A DNA stretch of 64,000 bases, taken from the human T2T-CHM13v2.0 reference genome, Homo sapiens. The notes under the pieces are model-generated. The model was not told where the DNA came from and did no database searches. It worked only from the letters and a program-made list of their open reading frames with translations. Shown here piece by piece: positions 12,931-40,300 of this stretch. The stretch lies in the NCBI RefSeq assembly GCF_009914755.1, contig NC_060947.1, one strand, 5' to 3'. The position numbers were made by a program, and so were the translations under genes. Within the stretch, counting starts at the first letter, position 1. Each line of letters begins with the position of its first letter.

Positions 12931-13487
12931 TTGTATCAGTACCATGCTGTGTTTTGCTTACTGTAGCCTTGCAGTATAGTTCGAAGTTGGCTAATGCGAT
13001 ACTTCCAGCTTTGTTATTTTTGCTTAGAATTGCCTTGGCTATTCGGGCTCTTTTTTGGTTTCATAAGAATTTTAAAATAGTTTTTTCTAGTTCTGTGAAG
13101 AATGTCATTGTTAGTTTGTTAGAAATAACACTGAATCTTTAGATTGCTTTGGGCAGTATGGTCATTTTGTTGATATTGATTCTTCCTATCCATGAGCATG
13201 GGATATTTTTCCATTTGTTTGTGTCTTCTCTTATTTCTTTGAGCAGTGTTTTGTAATTCTCATTGTAGATATCCTTCACCTCCTGAGTTAGCTGTATTCC
13301 CAGGTATTTTATTTTTTTGTGTGTGGCAATTGTGAATGGGATTGCCTTCCCAATTGGGCTCTCAGCTTGGCTGATGTTGATGTATAGAAATGCAAGTGAT
13401 TTTTGTACATTGATTTTGCATCCTGAAACTTTGCCAAAGTTGTTTATCAGCTGAAGGACCTATTGGGTTGAGAGTATGGGGTTTTCT

Positions 13488-16735
<3,248 letters not shown>

Positions 16736-17191
16736 GAGTATGGGGTTTTCTAGATATGGAATCATGTCGTCTGCAAACAGGGATAGTTTGACTTTCTATG
16801 TTCCTATTTAGATGCCCTTTATTTCTTTCTCTTGCCTCACTGCTCTGGCTAGAACTTCCAATACTATTTTAAATAAGAGTGGTAAGAAGGGCATCCTTGT
16901 CCTGTGCCTCTTTTAAAGTGGAATGCTTCCAGCTTTTGCCTATTCAGTATGAAGCTAATAGAAAATCAGACGGATTTGACAAGATGATTCACAGGAGAAC
17001 AAAACCAAATGATCAAACAACATAGGTAAAGATGCTTAAATGTATCTATCATTCAAGGAAATACAAGTTAAGTATCAATGAGATGTCACTACACCTGTTA
17101 TATTGGCACAGATGTAAAAAGAGTGCTAATGCCTAGTATTACAGATATGTTGGGAAAGAGTATGCTGAATAAAACAGATATTTAAAAAAAT

Positions 17192-24483: not shown

Positions 24484-25131
24484 CTATTAAGATAAAGAGA
24501 GACCTCAGTTCATTTGTTTGTTCAATAAGTATGTATTTAGTTCCTAATAGGAAATGAGCCAGTTGCTAGAGACAAACATGGACATTCTTAATCTCATGTA
24601 CTCCATCATCTATGGACAGAGAGATATAGGGAAGCAAATAATCTCATTATATGTAAAGTTACAACTGTGATGGGTACATAATAATAATAATAAATTTTAT
24701 ATATTATCAGAATTTATATAATTTTCCTATTGATAGACATTTAAGATATTCCAAAATTATTACTACTCTAAGCACTTCAGAAACAAACATTTCTGGGCAT
24801 ATAGCTTCTTCCACTTCTGAGATTATATCTTTAAGGTTAATCTTTAAAATGAAAATGGTCAGTAAAATGTATGCACATTTCCCATTTTGATAGATCTTAC
24901 CAAATTTCCTTTCTTTTTTTTTTATTATTATACTTTAAGTTTTAGGGTACATGTGCACATTGTGCAGGTTAGTTACATATGTATACATGTGCCATGCTGG
25001 TGCGCTGCACCCACTAACTCGTCATCTAGCATTAGGTATATCTCCTGATGTTATCCCTCCCCCCTCCCCCCACCCCACAACAGTCCCCAGAGTGTGATAT
25101 TCCCCTTCCTGTGTCCATGTGATCTCATTGT

Positions 25132-28986
<3,855 letters not shown>

Positions 28987-29022
28987 TTAGTTGATGCAGT
29001 TTCTTCCTAGTCTCGATGGTCT

Positions 29023-30039
29023 TTACATTTTGGCATGATTTTGCAGCGGCTGGTACCGGTTGTTCCTTTCCATGTTTAGTGCTTCCTTCAGGAGCTCTTG
29101 TAAGGCAGGCCTGGTGGTGACAAAATCTCTCAGCATTTGCTTGTCTGTAAAGTATTTTATTTCTCCTTCACTCATGAAGCTTAGTTTGGCTGGATATGAA
29201 ATTCTGGGTTGAAAATTCTTTTCTTTAAGAATGTTGAATATTGGCCCCCACTCTCTTCTGGCTTGTAGGGTTTCTGCCGACAGATCCGCTGTTAGTCTGA
29301 TGGGCTTCCCTTTGAGGGTAACCCGACCTTTCTCTCTGGCTGCCCTTAACATTTTTTCCTTCATTTCAACTTTGGTGAATCTGACAATTATGTGTCTTGG
29401 AGTTGCTCTTTTCGAGGAGTATCTTTGTGGCGTTCTCTGTATTTCCTGAATCTGAACGTTGGCCTGCCTTGCTATATTGGGGAAGTTCTCCTGGATAATA
29501 TCCCGCAGAGTGTTTTCCAACTTGGTTCCATTCTCCCCGTCACTTTCAGGTACACCAATCAGACGTAGATTTGGTCTTTTCACATAGTCCCATATTTCTT
29601 GGAGGCTTTGCTCATTTCTTTTTATTCTTTTTTCTGTAAACTTCCCTTCTCGCTTCATTTCATTCATTTCATCTTCCATTGCTGATACCCTTTCTTCCAG
29701 TTCATCGCTTCGGCTCCTGAGCCTTCTGCATTCTTCACGTAGTTCTCGAGCCTTGGTTTTCAGCTCCATCAGCTCCTTTAAGCACTTCTCTGTATTGGTT
29801 ATTCTAGTTATACATTCTTCTAAATTTTTTTCAAAGTTTTCAACTTCTTTGCCTTTGGTTTGAATGTCCTCCCGTAGCTCAGAGTAATTTGATCATCTGA
29901 AGCCTTCTTCTCTCAGCTCGTCAAAGTCATTCTCCATCCAGCTTTGTTCTGTTGCTGGTGAGGAACTGCGTTCCTTTGGAGGAGGAGAGGCGCTCTGCTT
30001 TTTAGAGTTTCCAGTTTTTCTGTTCTGTTTTTTCCCCAT
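29023..30039 (-). pseudogene. L1 ORF1 (338 codons) with one premature stop at codon 49
   Basis: ATG at 30037-30039 (MGKKQNRKTGNSK), TGA at 29893-29895. The remainder is open in the same frame (ORF 29023..29769). Confidence 0.92.
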
Positions 30040-30493
30040 CTTTGTGGTTTTATCTACTTTGGTCTTTGATGATGGTGATGTACAGATGGGTTTTTGGTGG
30101 GGATGTCCTTTCTGTTTGTTAGTTTTCCTTCTAACAGAGAGGACCCTCAGCTGCAGGTCTGTTTGAGTACCCTGCCATGTGAGGTGTCAGTGTGCCCCTG
30201 CTGGGGGGTGCCTCCCAGTTAGGCTGCTCGGGGGTCAGGGGTCAGGGACCCACTTGAGGAGGCAGTCTGCCCGTTCTCAGATCTCCAGCTGCGTGCTGGG
30301 AGAACCACTGCTCTCTTCAAAGCTGTCAGACAGGGACATTTAAGTCGGCAGAGGTTACTGCTGTCTTTTTGTTTGTCTATGCCCTGCCCCCAGAGGTGGA
30401 GCCTACAGAGGCAGGCAGACCTCTTTGAGCTGTGGTGGGCTCCACCCAGTTCGAGCTTCTGGGCTGCTTTGTTTACCTAATCAAGCCTGGGCA

Positions 30494-30796
30494 ATGGCGG
30501 GCGCCCCTCCCCCAGCCTCGCTGCCACCTTGCAGTTTGATCTCAGACTGCTGTGCTAGCAATCAGCGAGACTCCGTGGGCGTGGGACCCTCCGAGCCAGG
30601 TGCGGGATATGTGGTGCGCCGTTTTTTAAGCCCGCCGGAAAAGCGCAGTATTCGGGTGGGAGTGATCCGATTTTCCAGGTGCCATCTGTCACCCCTTTCT
30701 TTGACTCAGAAAGGGAACTCCCTGACCCCTTGCTCTTCCCAAGTGAGGCAATGCCTCGCCCTGCTTCGGCTCGCGCACGGTGCACGCACCCACTGA
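30494..30796 (+). CDS. L1 ORF0-like antisense ORF (MAGAPPPASLPPCSLISDCC...), 100 codons
   Basis: Part of ORF 30425..30796 in the L1 5' UTR. The N-terminus matches primate ORF0 and the C-terminus is longer. Expression unknown. Confidence 0.55.
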   Translation: MAGAPPPASLPPCSLISDCCASNQRDSVGVGPSEPGAGYVVRRFLSPPEKRSIRVGVIRFSRCHLSPLSLTQKGNSLTPCSSQVRQCLALLRLAHGARTH

Positions 30797-31440
30797 CCTG
30801 CGCCCACTGTCTGGCACTCCCTAGTGAGATGAACCCGGTACCTCAGATGGAAATGCAGAAATCACCCGTCTTCTGCGTCGCTCATCCTGGGAGCTGTAGA
30901 CCGGAGCTGTTCCTATTCGGCCATCTTGGCTCCTCCCTCCACCAAATTTCCTTTCTGAAAGGTGCCTTTCCATATGGCCATTGGCCATTTCCTTATTTTG
31001 TGAATTGTTTGTTTATGACAGTTTTTAATTTTTTTATGAAGGTAATGACTTTTTCTTATTGTTTGGAAAAATTATTTGTATTTTAAAGACATTAACTCTT
31101 TGTGATATATGTTACATGTAATTTTAAAAACATGGATTATGTAAAATTTAAATTTACATGAGATCTACCATGCTTTTTCTCTACGTGGTCTGGCTTTTCT
31201 GATCTGCTTATATACATCAAGATTACAAAAAACATATTTCCTTACTTTATTTTTATATTTTGATTTACCATAAGGATTTTCTATCACGTTTTCTTCTAGT
31301 ACCATCATGGTTTAATTTTTGCATTTGTTTCATTTATTTGGATTTTGTTTTGGTGTAAGAAGTGTATGAGGACTTCTTTAGTATTTTTAAATTTTTACAA
31401 ATAGTTAATAGTCTTATGCCTTTCATTAAATAAATCCATC

Positions 31441-34814: not shown

Positions 34815-37370
34815 TGTATTAGTCTGTTTCCATGCTGCTGATAAAGACATACATGAGACTGAGCAATTTACAAAAAAAATAAAAATAAAAAGAGGTTTAA
34901 TGGACTCACAGTTCCACGTGGCTGGGAAGGCCTCACAATCATGGAAGAAGGTGAAAGGCACATCTCACATGGCAGCAGACAAGAGAAGAGAATGAGAGCC
35001 AAGTGAAAGGGGCCCTTATAAAGCCATCAGATCTCATGAGACTTACTACCATGAGAACAGTATGGGGGAAACTGTCCCCATGATTCAATTATCTCCCACT
35101 GGGTCCCTCCCACAACATGAGGGAATTATGGGTGTTACAATTCAAGATGAAATTTGGGTGGGGGCACAGCCAAACCATATCATTCTGCCCCTGGCCCCTC
35201 CCAAATCTCATGTCTTCACATTTCAAAACCAATTATGCCTTCCCAACAGTCCCTCAAAGTCTTAACTCATTTTAGCATTTACTCAAAAGTCCACAATCCA
35301 AAGTCTCATCTGAGACAATGCAAGTCCCTTCCATCTATGAACCAGTAAAATCAAAAGCAAGTTAGTTATTTCCTAGATACAATGGAGGGGTACAGACATT
35401 GGGTAAACACAGTCATTCCAAATGGGAGAAATTGGCCAAAACAAAGGGGATACAGGCCCTATGCAAGTCTGGAATCCAGCAGGGCAGTCAGATCTTAAAA
35501 CTCCAAAATGATCTCCTTAGACTTCATGTCTTGCATCTGGGTCATGCTGATGCTTGAGAGATGGGTTCCCATTGTCTTGGGTTTATAAGGTTTAGCTTAG
35601 GTGTCTTCTTGTTTATTTTGGGAATGGAAATCAACATTTATAGTGACTGTATATAGTGCCAGGTCAGGAAGCCTGGAGAAATAACCTATAGGAATCCACA
35701 AGGTGGCTTGTTTATGTATGTTTCTGAAGCCAATTTCCCCAGTGAGATCACTGAATGGATTGGCTATGCCCTGGCCACTTGGTCCATCCTGACACTTGCA
35801 TTTGCATTTTTCTCACCTTGTTTCCTTGGGCAGCTCTGCCCCTGTGGCTTTGCAGGGTACAGCCTCTCTCCTGGTTGTTTTCACAGGCTGGCATTGAGTG
35901 TCTGTGGCTTTTCCAGGCACATGGTGCAAACTGTCAGTGGATCTACCATTCTGGGGTCTGGAGGATGGTGGCCCTCTTCTCACAGCTACACTAGGCAGCA
36001 CCCCATGGGGACTCTGTGTGGGGGCTCCAACCCCACATTTCCCTTCCATACTGCCCCAGCAGAGGTTCTCCATGAGGGCCCCACCCCGAAGCAAACTCTG
36101 CCTGGACATCCAGGTATTTCCATACATTCTCTGAAATCTAGGCACAGGTTCCCAAACCTCAATTCTTGACTTCTGTGCACTGCAGGCTCAACACCACATG
36201 GAAGCTGCCAAAGCTTGGGGCTTGCATGCTCTGTAGCCACAGCCTGAGCTATACTTTGGCCGCTTCTAGTCATGCCTGGAGTGGCTGGGATGCAGGGCAC
36301 CAAGTCCCTAGACTGCAAACAGCAGAGGGACCCTGCGCCCAGCCCACAGAATCATTTTTCATTCTTAGGTCTCAGGGCCTGTGGTGGAAGGGGCTGCCAC
36401 AAAAGTCTCTGACATGCCCTGGAGACATTTTCCCCATTGTCTTGGTGATTAACATTCTGCTCCTTGTTACTTATGCAAATTTCTGTAGCTGGCTTGAATT
36501 TCTCCTCAGAAAATGGGATTTTCTTTTCTATCACACTGTCAGGCTGCAAATTTTCTGAAATTTTATGCTGTGTTTCCTTTTTAAAAGTGAATGCTTTTAA
36601 CAGTACCCAAGTCACCTCTTGAATGCTTTGCTGCTTAGAAATTTCTTCTGCCAGATACCCTAAATCATCTCTCTCAAGTTCAAACTTCCACAAATCTCTA
36701 GGGCAGGGACAAAATGCTGCCAGTCTCTTTGCTAAAACATAACAAGTGTCACCTTTGCTCCGGTTCCCAGCAAGTTCCTCATCTCCATCTGAGACCACCT
36801 CAGCCTGTATTTTATTGTCCATATCATCAGCATTTTGGTCAAAGCCATTCAACAAGTCTCTAGGAAGTTCCTAGCTTTCCCACATTTTTCTGTCTTCTTC
36901 TGAGCCCTCCCATGTGTTCCAACCTCTGCCTATTACCCAGTTCCAAAGTTGCTTCCACATTTTTGAGTATCTTTTAAGTAGCACCCTATTCTTGGTACCA
37001 ATTTACTGTATTAGTCCATTTTCATGCTGCTGATAAAGACATACCCGACACTGGGCAATTTACAAAAGAAAGAGGTTTAATGGACTCATAGTTCCTTGTG
37101 GCTGGGGAGGCCTCAAAATCATGGCAGAAGGTGAAAGGCACATCTCACATGGCAGCAGACAAGAGAAGAGAATGAGAGCCAAGGGAAAGCGGTTTCCCCT
37201 TATAAAACTATCAGATCTTGTGAGACTTATTCACTACCATGAGAACAGTATGGGGGAAACTGTGCCCATGATTCAATTATCTCCCACTGGGTCCCTCCCA
37301 CAACATGAGGGAATTATGGGAGCTACAATTCAAGATGAAATTTGGGTGGGGACACAGCCAAACCATATGA
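34815..37370 (-). mobile_element. Complete THE1 (MaLR) element: LTR 34815-35182, internal region, LTR ~37007-37370
   Basis: Two similar ~365-bp LTRs. The internal MaLR ORF remnant is ORF 36352..36855. 5-bp TSD atatt/ttatt within L1 ORF2. Confidence 0.92.
35585..35830 (+). pseudogene. Spliced cDNA fragment of steroid 5-alpha-reductase 2 (SRD5A2), about codons 144-225
   Basis: 82 codons: IRFSLGVFLFILGMEINIYSDCI*CQVRKPGEITYRNPQGGLFMYVSEANFPSEITEWIGYALATWSILTLAFAFFSPCFLG. Collinear without gaps to SRD5A2 IRFSLGVFLFILGMGINIHSDYILRQLRKPGEISYRIPQGGLFTYVSGANFLGEIIEWIGYALATWSLPALAFAFFSLCFLG (recalled sequence). Confidence 0.9.
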
Positions 37371-40300
37371 TTATTGTTGCAAAAATTGTCAATAAAATAC
37401 TAGCAAACTGAATTCAACAACATATTAAAATGATCATTCATTCTGTAGGTTGTCTGTTTACTGTGTTGATAGTTTCTTTTGCTGTGTAGGAGCTCTTAAG
37501 TTTAATTAGACCCCATTTGTCAATTTTTCCTTTTGTTGCAGTTGTTTTTGGTGTCTTCATCATGAAATCTTTGCCTGTTCCTATGTCCAGAATGGTATTG
37601 CCTAGGTTTTCTTCCAGGGTTTTTGCACTTTTGCATTTTGCATTTCAGTACTTCACCCATCTTGAGTTTATTTTTGTATATGGTGTAGGAAAGGGGTCCA
37701 TTTTAAACCTCCTGCATAGGGCTAGCCAATTATCCCAGCACCATTTATTGAATAAGGAGTCTTTTCCCCAATGCTTGTTTTTGTCAGGCTTGTCAAAGAT
37801 CAGATTGTTGTAGGTGTGTGGCCTTATTTTTGGGCTCTCTATTCTGTTCCATTGTTCTATGTGTCTGTTTCTGTGCCAGTACCATGCTGTTTTGGTAACC
37901 ATAGCTCTGTAGTATAGTTTTGAGTGAGGTAAGGTGATTCCTCCAGCTTTGTTCTTTTTGCTTAGGATTGCTTTGACTATTTGGGCTCTTTTTGTGATTC
38001 CATATGAATTTTAAAATAGTCTTTTCTGGTTCTGTGAAGAATGTCATTGGTAGTTTGATAGGAATAGCATTGAATCTATAGATTGCTTTGGGCAGTATGG
38101 CCATTTTAATGATATTTATTTTTCCTATCCATGAACATGGAATGTTTTTCCATATGCATCTGATGAAGGCCTAATATCCAGCATCTATAAGAAACTTAAA
38201 CAAATTTACAAGAAAAAGCCTATGAAAAAGTGGGCAAATAACATGAATAGACACTTTTCAAAAGAAGACATGCATGTGGCCAATGAGCGTATGAAAAAAA
38301 AGTTCAACACCCCTGATAATTAGAGAAATTCAAATCAAAACCAGAATGAGACACCATCTCACGCAGTCAGAATGGCTATGATTAAAAAGTCAAAAATAGG
38401 CTGGGCACCATGGCTCATGCCTGCAATCCTAGCACTTTGGGATGCCACGGAGGGAGGATGGATCACTTGAGCCCAGGAGTTCTAGACCAGCCCAGGATAC
38501 ATAGCAAAATGCCACCTCTCTATATAAATAAGGCAAAAAAAAAAAAAAAAAACAAAACTACTGTCAAAGTTGCAGGGAAAAAGGAACACAGACACTGTTA
38601 AGTGGGAGTCTAAATTAGTTCAACTATTGTGGAAAGCAGTGTGACATTTTCTTAAAGACCTAAAAATAGAACTACCATTTTACCCAGCAATCCTATTACT
38701 GGGTATCTACCCAAAGAGATATAAATTATTTTATCATAAAGATGCATGCACACATGCTCACTGCAGCACTATTCACAATAGCAAAAACATGGAATCAACC
38801 TAAATGCCCATCAATGGTAGACTGGATAAAGACAATGTGGTACATATACACAACTGAATATGATGCAGCCATAAAAAAGAATAAGATAATTAAGATGGCA
38901 GATAGGAGGCAGCACTAGCTTGCAGCTCCCACTTGGACAGACAGAGAGGTGTGGAGGCTCACATCATGATCTTTTGCTCCAAGAAGTACCACAGCAACAT
39001 TCCAGGGAAGCTGAGATAATCCACAGACCCTTTGAAGGAACTGGAGCACTGCTGCATGCTCCCTGAGATGCTGAAAAACTGTGAGTCTCCTTGCTTTTTA
39101 GCTGGGAGGCTGGTGGTCTGGGGCAAGTTCTCAGCCTTGATCACCAGATTCCCAGAAATAGACTCGGTGCTGTTGAGGGGGCACAGTGGGAGTAAGACTG
39201 GCCTTTAGGACTGCAGGCTGCATGGGTGCGGGATGAGCCTGTGACTGCCAGCTTTCCCCTACTTCCTTGGTGATCTGTATGACTCAGCAGAGGCAGCTAT
39301 TATCCCCGTGGGAACATAACTCCATTGGCCTGGGAACCACACCCCCATCCCCTACAGCAGCCACAGCAAGCTACACTCAAGGAGAGTCTGAGCTCAGACA
39401 TGCCTAACCCTGCCCCCACTTGGTGGTCTTTCTCTACCCACCCTGGTTGCAAGGACAAGGGACATAATCTCTTGGGAGCTCTATGGCTCTGCCCACCACC
39501 CGAGAAACCTGAATACTTAACCAGGTGACCCTAGGGAAAGTTTGCTTCCTCCCTAGACTACTACAACTGATGTGCTCTTGAAAGCACCACCTCCTGGCTG
39601 GAGGCCAACCAATACAAATCCAGCACATTAAATAAAAATACAACCAAAGACTCTCACAGAATCCACTTCACTCCCCTGCTATCTCTACCAGAGCAGGTGC
39701 TGGTATCCATGGCCAAAAGACATGAAGATGGGTCATATCACAGGACTCTTTGCAGATACTCTCCAGTACCAGCCTGAAGCCAGTAGCTCCGCTAGGTGGC
39801 TAGACCTAGAAGAGCAAAAACAATCACCGCAGTTCGGCTCTCAGGAAGCCCGAATTCTAGAGGAAGTGTGAGAACAACAATCAAGGGACCACCCCGTGGG
39901 AGAAAAGAATTTGAACAGCCCCTCCCAGATCTTCCCTCTGACATAGTCTAAGCAAGTGAGAAATAACTAGAAAATCAATTCTGGTAATACAACAAAACAA
40001 GGTAATTTAACACTCCCAAAAGATCACACCAGCTCACAAGCAATGGATCCAAACCAAGATAAAATACCTGAATTGCCAGAAAAAGAATTCAGAAGGTAGA
40101 TTATTAAGCTAATCAAGGAGACATCAGAGAAAGGTGAACTCCAACTTAAAGAAATCATAAACATGATACAGGATATGAAAGGAAAAATCTTCAATGATAT
40201 GAAAGCAAAAATCTTCAATGAAATAGATAGCATAAATAAAAAACAACCACAACTTCTGGAAATTAAGGACACACTTATAGAAATGCAAAATGCACTGGAA

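What the first reader, a model, noticed from the sequence alone, without database searches (positions are those of the whole stretch)
35576..35831. Spliced SRD5A2 mRNA fragment inside a THE1 LTR retrotransposon, without L1 hallmarks
Seen: the THE1 internal sequence ...ttcccattgtCTTGGG|cagctctgcccctgtgg... is interrupted by 249 bp (35582-35830). Of these, 246 bp translate gap-free to a 5-alpha-reductase type 2 segment. CTTGGG sits at both junctions (35576-35581 and 35825-35830). There is no poly(A) and no long TSD, and the insert is antisense to the THE1. Knowledge (recalled): SRD5A2 introns fall after c.445 and c.547 (codons G149 and G183), and both positions are crossed with no intron here, so the template was spliced RNA. 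The parent also reads CTTGGGC at the right junction, so that end is microhomology. Inference: either template switching to a co-packaged cellular RNA during MaLR reverse transcription (retrovirus-like gene capture) or RNA/cDNA-templated double-strand-break repair. It is distinct from the known X-linked SRD5A1 pseudogene and is easily hidden by repeat masking. It also creates the chimeric ORF 35708..36169.
Basis: partly seen in the sequence, partly recalled or inferred. Interest (0 to 1): 0.8.

Follow-up and report, generated by a model that had tools for sequence, protein, structure and literature searches.

The report
Spliced SRD5A2 cDNA patch inside THE1
A 246-base piece of spliced SRD5A2 messenger RNA was copied into DNA and pasted into an already resident THE1 retroelement tens of millions of years ago, most likely as a repair patch at a chromosome break; it is a clean but ordinary example of a known process.

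Summary
Window 35585-35830 (+) matches three separate chr2 pieces with no gap: the last 16 bp of SRD5A2 exon 2, all 102 bp of exon 3 and the first 128 bp of exon 4. Identity is 221 of 246, and introns of 2162 and 1913 bp are missing. The template was therefore spliced RNA. RefSeq already lists the locus as SRD5A2P1.

The host is a full-length LTR element on the minus strand. In 5 of 5 and then 23 of 25 other copies the two flanks are contiguous and share a single CTTGGG. No element sequence was lost.

At the right junction the parent mRNA and the element share 7 exact bases. At the left junction there are 3 bases that match neither. There is no poly(A) and no L1 nick site.

The insert occurs nowhere else in the genome. 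Its age cannot be told apart from the element's age (ratio 0.99, CI 0.64-1.46).

Best reading (about 0.85): insertion after integration, by microhomology-primed reverse transcription or cDNA capture at a break. This is an ancient, fixed class 2 templated insertion of the endonuclease-independent type. Capture during THE1 replication is disfavoured (about 0.03). Interest is low to moderate.

The parts
34815..35184 (-). 3' LTR of the host element (called THE1/MaLR from recall; no tool here names repeat families)
   Evidence: Pairs with 37007-37372. Alignment gives 358 aligned positions with 25 substitutions, K2P 0.074. A purine-rich tract on the minus strand at about 35185-35204 abuts it (printout), which sets the element's orientation as minus.
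35185..35581 (-). Internal part of the element to the left of the insert; the last 6 nt (35576-35581) are CTTGGG
   Evidence: Other copies align up to 35581.
35582..35584 (+). TTT: three bases that match neither the element (other copies continue with CAG) nor the parent mRNA (GAC); filler or non-templated bases
   Evidence: parent upstream context compared with window context.
35585..35600 (+). Last 16 nt of SRD5A2 exon 2 (C2:31578383->31578368)
   Evidence: 14 of 16 identical. In the genome this piece is followed by a GTAAGT donor site.
35601..35702 (+). Complete SRD5A2 exon 3, 102 nt (C2:31576205->31576104); holds the in-frame TAG at 35654-35656
   Evidence: the stop codon is.
35703..35830 (+). 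First 128 nt of SRD5A2 exon 4 (C2:31574190->31574063). The last 6 nt, plus base 35831, form the 7-nt stretch shared by the parent mRNA and the element
35831..37006 (-). Internal part of the element to the right of the insert
   Evidence: 85-87% identical over its full length to 39 other genomic copies. Star-tree private branch 0.0715.
37007..37372 (-). 5' LTR of the host element
35714..36169 (+). 151-aa ATG-ORF that runs from the insert into antisense element sequence; judged a chance frame
   Evidence: The ATG arose from a substitution in codon 187.

Best explanation
The element had already integrated in what is now CLIC2 intron 1 when its DNA was nicked or broken at ...CTTGGG|CAGC.... A spliced SRD5A2 mRNA paired through its own CTTGGGC (10 of 11 bases match) with the exposed minus-strand 3' end on the right side of the break. 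A cellular reverse transcriptase, most likely L1 ORF2p acting in trans, copied the mRNA from that internal site back through exon 3 into the end of exon 2, about 240-246 nt. It then fell off. The cDNA end was joined to the left DNA end by end joining with three extra bases. A variant of the same idea is that a ready-made cDNA fragment was captured by microhomology-mediated end joining.

The product is a dead, unexpressed 246-bp pseudogene fragment.

What is shown and what is inferred:
- Shown: the spliced RNA origin, the junction anatomy, the intact target, the single copy and the great age.
- Inferred: the order of steps, the identity of the enzyme, and whether the right-hand CTTGGG came from the mRNA or from the element.
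For: Spliced origin. The insert corresponds to three chr2 pieces separated by 2162 and 1913 bp. It aligns to them over 246 bp with 0 gaps and 25 mismatches, and canonical splice sites flank each piece in the gene.

Target intact. The flanks are contiguous with one CTTGGG in 5 of 5 other copies and in 23 of 25 clean pairs from 29 further copies.

Right junction. Seven exact bases are shared by the parent mRNA and the element. The chance of this at a random junction is 6e-5.

Left junction. Three unmatched bases.

No L1 hallmarks. There is no poly(A). The putative minus-strand nick sites match the TTTT/AA consensus at no more than 1 of 6 positions (read; the consensus is as given in PMC1920257).

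Single copy. A genome search with the insert alone returns 3 of 3 places: the locus itself plus the two parental exons.

Fit to described kinds:
- Class 2 templated insertions have no TSD and no poly(A). They show microhomology and non-templated bases, can have spliced cDNA templates, and measured 73-414 bp in the experimental system (PMC5110952, parts 1-2 read).
- Endonuclease-independent L1 insertions had extra nucleotides in 15 of 21 loci and junction microhomology, and 3 of 21 had no target deletion (PMC1920257, passages read).

Contrast within the window. TWF1P2 carries a 16-bp target-site duplication.
Against: Dating does not show that the insert is younger than the element.
- The insert's own lineage is about 0.074 substitutions per site (dS 0.165, dN 0.094). 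The element's private branch is 0.0715. The age ratio is 0.99, CI 0.64-1.46.
- Measured against this copy's own LTR-LTR distance (K2P 0.074, so 0.037 per lineage), the insert even looks older (binomial P 0.01-0.04).
- I attribute this to LTR homogenisation. 0.074 is the lowest of 27 copies (the other 26 have a median of 0.142), while the interior of this copy is typical (rank 10 of 30). No direct trace of gene conversion was found, however: halves 15/179 versus 10/179, P 0.41.

The absence of any target deletion is the minority outcome for endonuclease-independent insertions (3 of 21).

The 6-nt repeat could be read as a short true target-site duplication.

The pre-insertion state is inferred from paralogous copies, not from an orthologous empty site.
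Confidence: 0.85

Rival explanations
1. L1 endonuclease-dependent target-primed reverse transcription at an atypical site. In this reading the two CTTGGG copies are a true 6-bp target-site duplication made by staggered nicks, and priming occurred on an internal mRNA site rather than on the poly(A) tail.
For: The geometry fits: left flank, repeat, insert in sense orientation, repeat, right flank. A minus-strand 3' end ending in the complement of the repeat would pair with 7 nt of the mRNA. Repeats of at least 5 bp count as duplications in the class 1 definition (PMC5110952, part 2).
Against: The implied nick site matches TTTT/AA at 1 of 6 positions. There is no poly(A) and no polyadenylation signal. 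The parent mRNA itself supplies the same 6-7 bases, so no duplication needs to be assumed. Six bp is short for an L1 target-site duplication; the classical neighbour TWF1P2 has 16 bp.
Confidence: 0.07
2. Retrovirus-like capture. During reverse transcription of the element's RNA in a virus-like particle, the polymerase switched to a co-packaged SRD5A2 mRNA and then back. The chimera was therefore made before or at integration, either in this cycle or in a lost progenitor.
For: The insert lies between two parts of one LTR element and has no L1 hallmarks. There is 7-nt microsimilarity at one switch point. The insert's age equals the element's age within error, and it exceeds the age implied by this copy's LTR-LTR distance. 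LTR-mediated retroposition is documented, including three human cases (PMC5131818, section 6 read).
Against: The element is not discontinuous. Departure and return would have to hit the same nucleotide, whereas the published cases replace part of the interior and a gap of more than 20 bp is the filter (PMC5131818, passages).

The insert is antisense to the element. A switch during minus-strand synthesis to an mRNA gives the sense orientation, so a switch during plus-strand synthesis onto RNA would be needed (my inference from the mechanism).

There is no microsimilarity at the second junction, only 3 unmatched bases.

No other copy of the insert exists in the genome.
Confidence: 0.03
3. DNA-level copying, by gene conversion or replication template switching, from another SRD5A2 retrocopy that has since been lost.
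For: Microhomology junctions and short filler also occur in replication-based template switching (established knowledge, recalled).
Against: No other SRD5A2-like retrocopy was found, either by DNA search (3 of 3 places are the locus itself and the parental exons) or by Pfam profile (16 matches, none an SRD5A2 retrocopy other than this one). This reading needs an extra, unobserved locus.
Confidence: 0.03

Closest known systems
Class 2 templated sequence insertions (Onozawa and Aplan; review PMC5110952, parts 1-2 read)
   Same: Both are RNA-derived and can come from spliced cDNA. Both have no poly(A), no real target-site duplication and no L1 site. Both show microhomology at a junction and non-templated bases at another. 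The size is within the experimental range of 73-414 bp.
   Different: The described cases are polymorphic or experimentally induced. This one is fixed and roughly as old as the surrounding element (about 7% neutral divergence). No microdeletion is seen at the target.
Endonuclease-independent (non-classical) L1 insertions, NCLI (Sen et al. 2007, PMC1920257, passages read; Morrish 2002 as cited there)
   Same: All four criteria have counterparts here: 3' truncation, no poly(A), no target-site duplication and a non-consensus site. Junction microhomology and extra nucleotides are also shared.
   Different: The template here is a cellular mRNA, not L1 RNA. 18 of 21 NCLI loci deleted target DNA, whereas none was lost here.
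LTR-mediated retroposition by template switching (Tan et al. 2016, PMC5131818; FAM8A1 in HERV-K as cited there)
   Same: A partial mRNA copy lies inside an LTR element, with microsimilarity at a junction and no L1 hallmarks.
   Different: The host element here is uninterrupted apart from the insert (0-bp gap). The insert is antisense. One junction lacks microsimilarity. No propagated copies exist.
Classical L1-made processed pseudogenes (for example TWF1P2 in this window; the SRD5A1-type retrocopy at C23:137757337-137757783)
   Same: Reverse-transcribed spliced mRNA that is disabled.
   Different: Those are long or full-length copies. TWF1P2 carries a 16-bp target-site duplication. This fragment is internal to the mRNA, truncated at both ends, and lacks the hallmarks.

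Membership tests
SRD5A2-derived processed pseudogene fragment | The closest genomic relative is SRD5A2, not SRD5A1 or another family member | tested here: met
   The only DNA matches in the genome are chr2 exons 3 and 4 at 89-92% identity. The SRD5A1 exons on C5 are found by profile but not by DNA search. PDB 7bw1 (SRD5A2) matches at E 6.4e-37.
SRD5A2-derived processed pseudogene fragment | Exon-exon junctions are crossed without intron sequence | tested here: met
   Two junctions, at 35600|35601 and 35702|35703. The corresponding introns of 2162 and 1913 bp have GT/AG ends in the gene.
SRD5A2-derived processed pseudogene fragment | Disabled and not under coding constraint | tested here: met
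   There is an in-frame TAG. 17 nonsynonymous and 8 synonymous differences give dN/dS 0.57 against a constrained parent. The fragment covers only 82 codons.
Classical L1 (endonuclease-dependent) retrocopy | Poly(A) tail at the 3' end of the insert | tested here: not met
   The insert ends inside exon 4 and abuts element sequence directly.
Classical L1 (endonuclease-dependent) retrocopy | Target-site duplication made of target sequence | tested here: inconclusive
   Only a 6-nt repeat is present, and the parent mRNA carries the same 7 nt at that point.
Classical L1 (endonuclease-dependent) retrocopy | Nick site resembling TTTT/AA | tested here: not met
   No more than 1 of 6 positions match at either candidate nick (read).
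Class 2 templated insertion / endonuclease-independent type | Microhomology and/or non-templated bases at the junctions | tested here: met
   7 nt at the right junction; 3 unmatched bases at the left.
Class 2 templated insertion / endonuclease-independent type | Pre-insertion (empty) site demonstrated in an orthologous genome | not testable with these tools
   No other primate genome is held. The empty state is inferred from 28 paralogous copies.
Class 2 templated insertion / endonuclease-independent type | Donor locus left intact (copy, not cut) | tested here: met
   SRD5A2 exons 2-5 are present on chr2.
LTR-mediated retroposition (template switch in the particle) | Flanking LTR element is discontinuous, with part of its interior replaced (gap of more than 20 bp) | tested here: not met
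   The gap is 0 bp and the flanks overlap by the shared 6 nt. The criterion is from PMC5131818, methods passage.
LTR-mediated retroposition (template switch in the particle) | Microsimilarity at the switch points | tested here: inconclusive
   Present at the right junction (7 nt) and absent at the left (3 filler bases). The paper also reports some junctions with de novo bases.
LTR-mediated retroposition (template switch in the particle) | Same element type on both sides, and no L1 hallmarks | tested here: met

The most novel reading that the evidence does not exclude
The chimera was made inside the replication cycle of the MaLR/THE1 element, either in this cycle or in a progenitor later reduced to a solo LTR. 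It would have formed by a switch during plus-strand synthesis onto a co-packaged SRD5A2 mRNA. This would explain why the insert is exactly as old as the element, and it would be the first cellular gene capture documented for a primate MaLR. A milder version is that the reverse transcriptase that made the patch was the ERV-L helper of THE1, active in the germ line at that time, rather than L1.
Probability: 0.04. Interest if true: 0.6.

Novelty: new member of a known kind. Interest (0 to 1): 0.25.

Why it matters
In itself this is a dead 246-bp pseudogene fragment in an intron, with no sign of function.

Its value is as a clean, nucleotide-resolved and very old example of a non-canonical, reverse-transcriptase-dependent insertion that lacks L1 hallmarks.

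It also suggests a method. When such a patch lands in a high-copy repeat, the other copies of the repeat serve as a proxy for the lost empty site. Ancient events can then still be classified: junction microhomology, filler bases, and whether target sequence was lost. A systematic scan for spliced gene fragments nested in otherwise contiguous repeats could measure how often RNA-derived break patches became fixed during primate evolution. The polymorphism-based surveys cannot reach that far back.

Tried and rejected
1. First spliced alignment. It had an off-by-one exon 3 boundary and gave a false 60% identity. I discarded it and repeated it correctly.

2. Fisher test on 'LTR halves'. It used numbers I had miscounted by eye, so I discarded it. 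The proper split shows no significant heterogeneity (15/179 versus 10/179, P 0.41; thirds 14, 6, 5). There is therefore no direct evidence for a conversion tract. Homogenisation is inferred only because this copy's LTR-LTR distance is the lowest of 27 while its interior is typical.

3. APOBEC-type editing as a cause of the excess divergence. The 25 differences comprise 17 transitions and 8 transversions. By my own count from the table there are 5 G-to-A and 6 C-to-T changes, which shows no strand bias. Rejected.

4. A second microhomology at the left junction. TGGGT occurs in the parent 16 nt upstream, but using it would need an extra 11-nt deletion plus 2 new bases. Rejected.

5. The THE1 copy about 85 kb from SRD5A2 exon 4 (L007) as a source. 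It is less similar to the window copy (76-87%) than 29 other copies are (85-87%). With 8092 first-look candidates in 3.1 Gb, a copy within 100 kb is expected about half the time. Rejected as coincidence.

6. Target-site duplication of the host element. ATATT versus TTATT (4 of 5), if the right LTR ends at 37370. Inconclusive (printout).

8. Supplements of PMC5131818. Two of three files were searched and held no hit for SRD5A2, THE1 or FAM8A1. File 1 was not searchable, so I could not see which three human loci that paper lists.

9. Literature. 'SRD5A2P1' gave 0 papers. 'SRD5A2 pseudogene', '5-alpha reductase pseudogene', 'SRD5A1P1' and 'SRD5AP1' gave 4 papers; judged from the search listing only, none is about this locus.
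Full report
**What is there.** The window is chrX:153512001-153576000 of T2T-CHM13 (hub note; confirmed as G000:C23). Between 34815 and 37372 lies a complete LTR-bounded element.
- Its LTRs are 34815-35184 and 37007-37372.
- A purine-rich tract on the minus strand abuts the left LTR (printout), so the element is on the minus strand.
- The interior of the element is interrupted at 35582-35830.

**The insert is SRD5A2 and it is spliced.**
- The translation of 35582-35830 matches Pfam Steroid_dh (E 1.2e-24).
- It also matches the solved human SRD5A2 structure 7bw1 (E 6.4e-37; chain residues 148-229).
- It contains one in-frame TAG.
- A DNA search of the whole genome with the insert alone found 3 of 3 candidate places. 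They are the locus itself, C2:31574063-31574192 (92% identity) and C2:31576102-31576207 (89% identity).
- A Pfam-profile search of the genome placed SRD5A2 exons 2-5 on chr2. It also showed the separate, full-length SRD5A1-type retrocopy at C23:137757337-137757783.
- Reading the chr2 loci shows exon 2 ending before a GTAAGT donor, exon 3 (102 bp) between AG and GTAATG, and exon 4 after an AG.
- The window segment 35585-35830 aligns without a gap to three joined pieces: the last 16 nt of exon 2, all of exon 3 and the first 128 nt of exon 4.
- Identity is 221 of 246. The 25 differences are 17 transitions and 8 transversions, giving K2P 0.110. An earlier attempt had a boundary error and is void.
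- The introns skipped are 2162 and 1913 bp long.
- Codon numbers (144-225; junctions in codons 149 and 183) follow from the PDB chain numbering minus 4. That offset is my recollection of variant names, not a tool result.

**The target is intact.**
- Five other copies of the element (L004-L008) align to the window up to 35581 and from 35824/35825 on. Their own coordinates overlap by 6-7 nt.
- Of 29 further copies, 25 gave a clean pair of alignments.
  - In 23 of them the overlap was 5-7 nt.
  - In two the alignment ends were trimmed (overlaps 2 and -5).
- The remaining four failed my 200-bp length filter on the left side. Their right alignments still begin at 35825/35826.
- None of the copies has an insert.
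- The uninterrupted element therefore reads ...CTTGGG CAGC... once, and nothing was lost or duplicated beyond those 6 nt.

**Junctions.**
- Right junction: the parent mRNA reads CTTGGGC, then T, then GC. The element reads CTTGGGC, then A, then GC. That is seven exact shared bases and 10 of 11 overall. The window has the element's A, so the crossover lies within 35825-35831. A 7-nt match at a random junction has probability 6e-5, so this join was homology-guided.
- Left junction: after the element's CTTGGG come TTT and then the parent from ATA on. At those three positions the parent has GAC and the element CAG, so they are filler.
- There is no poly(A).
- The two conceivable minus-strand nick sites match the L1 endonuclease consensus TTTT/AA at no more than 1 of 6 positions (read).
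- By contrast, the classical processed pseudogene TWF1P2 in the same window is flanked by a 16-bp target-site duplication at 13472-13487 and 16736-16751.

**Age.**
- Between insert and parent, dS is 0.165 (8 changes) and dN is 0.094 (17 changes).
- I assumed that the pseudogene evolves neutrally on the X and that the parent is constrained on an autosome. The assumed values are omega about 0.2 and an autosome/X rate ratio of about 1.25.
- Under those assumptions both classes give about 0.074 substitutions per site for the insert's own lineage.
- For the element I used pairwise distances only, without building a consensus.
  - A least-squares star tree was fitted to 30 copies over 35831-37006.
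  - It gives the window copy a private branch of 0.0715 (SE about 0.008; non-CpG 0.0626).
  - That is rank 10 of 30; the median of the others is 0.0785.
- The ratio of insert age to element age is 0.99 with a Poisson CI of 0.64-1.46. With other assumptions for the parent's share it is 0.84 or 1.14.
- This copy's two LTRs differ by only K2P 0.074 (25 of 358). That would make the insert look older than the integration (P 0.01-0.04).
- I tried 33 other copies, and 26 gave usable LTR pairs. Seven were dropped: six had fewer than two long LTR hits and one had discordant orientation.
- Their LTR-LTR distances have a median of 0.142 (range 0.084-0.198). Half of that equals the star branches.
- The window copy's LTRs are therefore the most similar of 27 while its interior is ordinary.
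- I read this as LTR homogenisation. I found no conversion tract, however (15/179 versus 10/179, P 0.41). The Fisher test printed used miscounted numbers and is void.
- Conclusion: the insertion happened at the integration of the element or within roughly the first third of its residence. Dating does not separate the hypotheses, and it mildly favours 'at integration'.

**Mechanism.** Two described kinds fit.

*Class 2 templated sequence insertions.*
- They lack a target-site duplication and poly(A).
- They show microhomology, microdeletion and non-templated bases.
- They are sensitive to reverse-transcriptase inhibitors and can derive from cDNAs with several spliced exons.
- They measured 73-414 bp in the experimental system (PMC5110952, parts 1-2 read).

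*Endonuclease-independent L1 insertions.*
- They are defined by 3' truncation, no target-site duplication, no poly(A) and a non-consensus site.
- They had extra nucleotides at 15 of 21 loci, microhomology at both ends, and target deletions at 18 of 21 loci (PMC1920257, passages read).

The present locus matches these in every junction feature. The one exception is that no target DNA was lost, which is the minority outcome.

*Retrovirus-like capture.*
- It is documented for LTR elements, including three human cases (PMC5131818, section 6 and passages read).
- That paper states that in its cases part of the element's interior was replaced, and that no element looked like a continuous one interrupted by foreign DNA.
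- It excludes loci with a gap of 20 bp or less as insertions into pre-existing elements. The gap here is 0 bp.
- The insert is also antisense to the element. A switch from element RNA to an mRNA during minus-strand synthesis would give the sense orientation (my inference).
- One junction has no microsimilarity, and no sibling copy exists.

I therefore put post-integration patching at about 0.85. The alternatives are an atypical endonuclease-dependent event with a true 6-bp duplication at about 0.07, capture at about 0.03 and DNA-level copying from a lost retrocopy at about 0.03.

**Function and novelty.**
- The 151-aa frame 35714-36169 starts at an ATG created by a substitution. It runs into antisense element sequence and is one of 8 ATG-ORFs of at least 140 aa in 64 kb. 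Nothing suggests that it is used.
- The fragment lies in CLIC2 intron 1, on the opposite strand (hub table).
- The locus is already catalogued as SRD5A2P1.
- No paper in the searched library mentions it. 'SRD5A2P1' returned 0 papers. Four related terms returned 4 papers, none of them about this locus as judged from the listing only.
- It is a new, well-resolved member of a known kind.

**What remains open.**
- The orthologous empty site could not be examined, because no other primate genome is held.
- The enzyme responsible is unknown.
- It is also unknown whether the right-hand CTTGGG is mRNA-derived or element-derived.
- One supplementary file of PMC5131818 could not be searched, so I cannot say whether this locus was among the 518 human candidates that paper screened.

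Noticed in passing
window 25132-28959 (-) and 29023-29769 (-): An open frame of 1275 aa, followed upstream by one of 248 aa, lies inside the roughly 6-kb masked block 24899-30942. It looks like a full-length L1 whose second reading frame is still open (length recalled as that of ORF2p). It sits in CLIC2 intron 1.
   Followed up: no
window 13472-13487 and 16736-16751: TWF1P2 is flanked by a perfect 16-bp direct repeat, a classical target-site duplication. The flanking sequence itself looks like old L1.
   Followed up: partly
window 34815-35184 versus 37007-37372: The two LTRs of this element are the most similar pair among 27 full-length copies compared (K2P 0.074 against a median of 0.142), although the interior is of ordinary age. 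LTR-LTR gene conversion is suspected, but no tract was detected.
   Followed up: partly
L007 = G000:C2:31657673-31660749: A copy of the same element family lies about 85 kb from SRD5A2 exon 4, on the gene's strand and on its upstream side. It is judged a coincidence: it is not the closest relative of the window copy, and about 0.5 such copies are expected within 100 kb.
   Followed up: partly
G000:C4:90279061-90279501 (-) (L012) and C4:127765426-127765737 (-) (L016): Two further intronless Steroid_dh-type matches on chr4. One has a 167-aa frame with no stop. They are probably retrocopies of another family member.
   Followed up: no
L047 and L052: Two other copies of the element have LTR spacing about 300 bp longer than the usual ~1930 bp, so they also carry an insertion of some kind, possibly an Alu.
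   Followed up: no
window 36352-36822 (-): A 156-aa ATG-ORF on the element's sense strand, presumably a remnant of the element's own reading frame.
   Followed up: no
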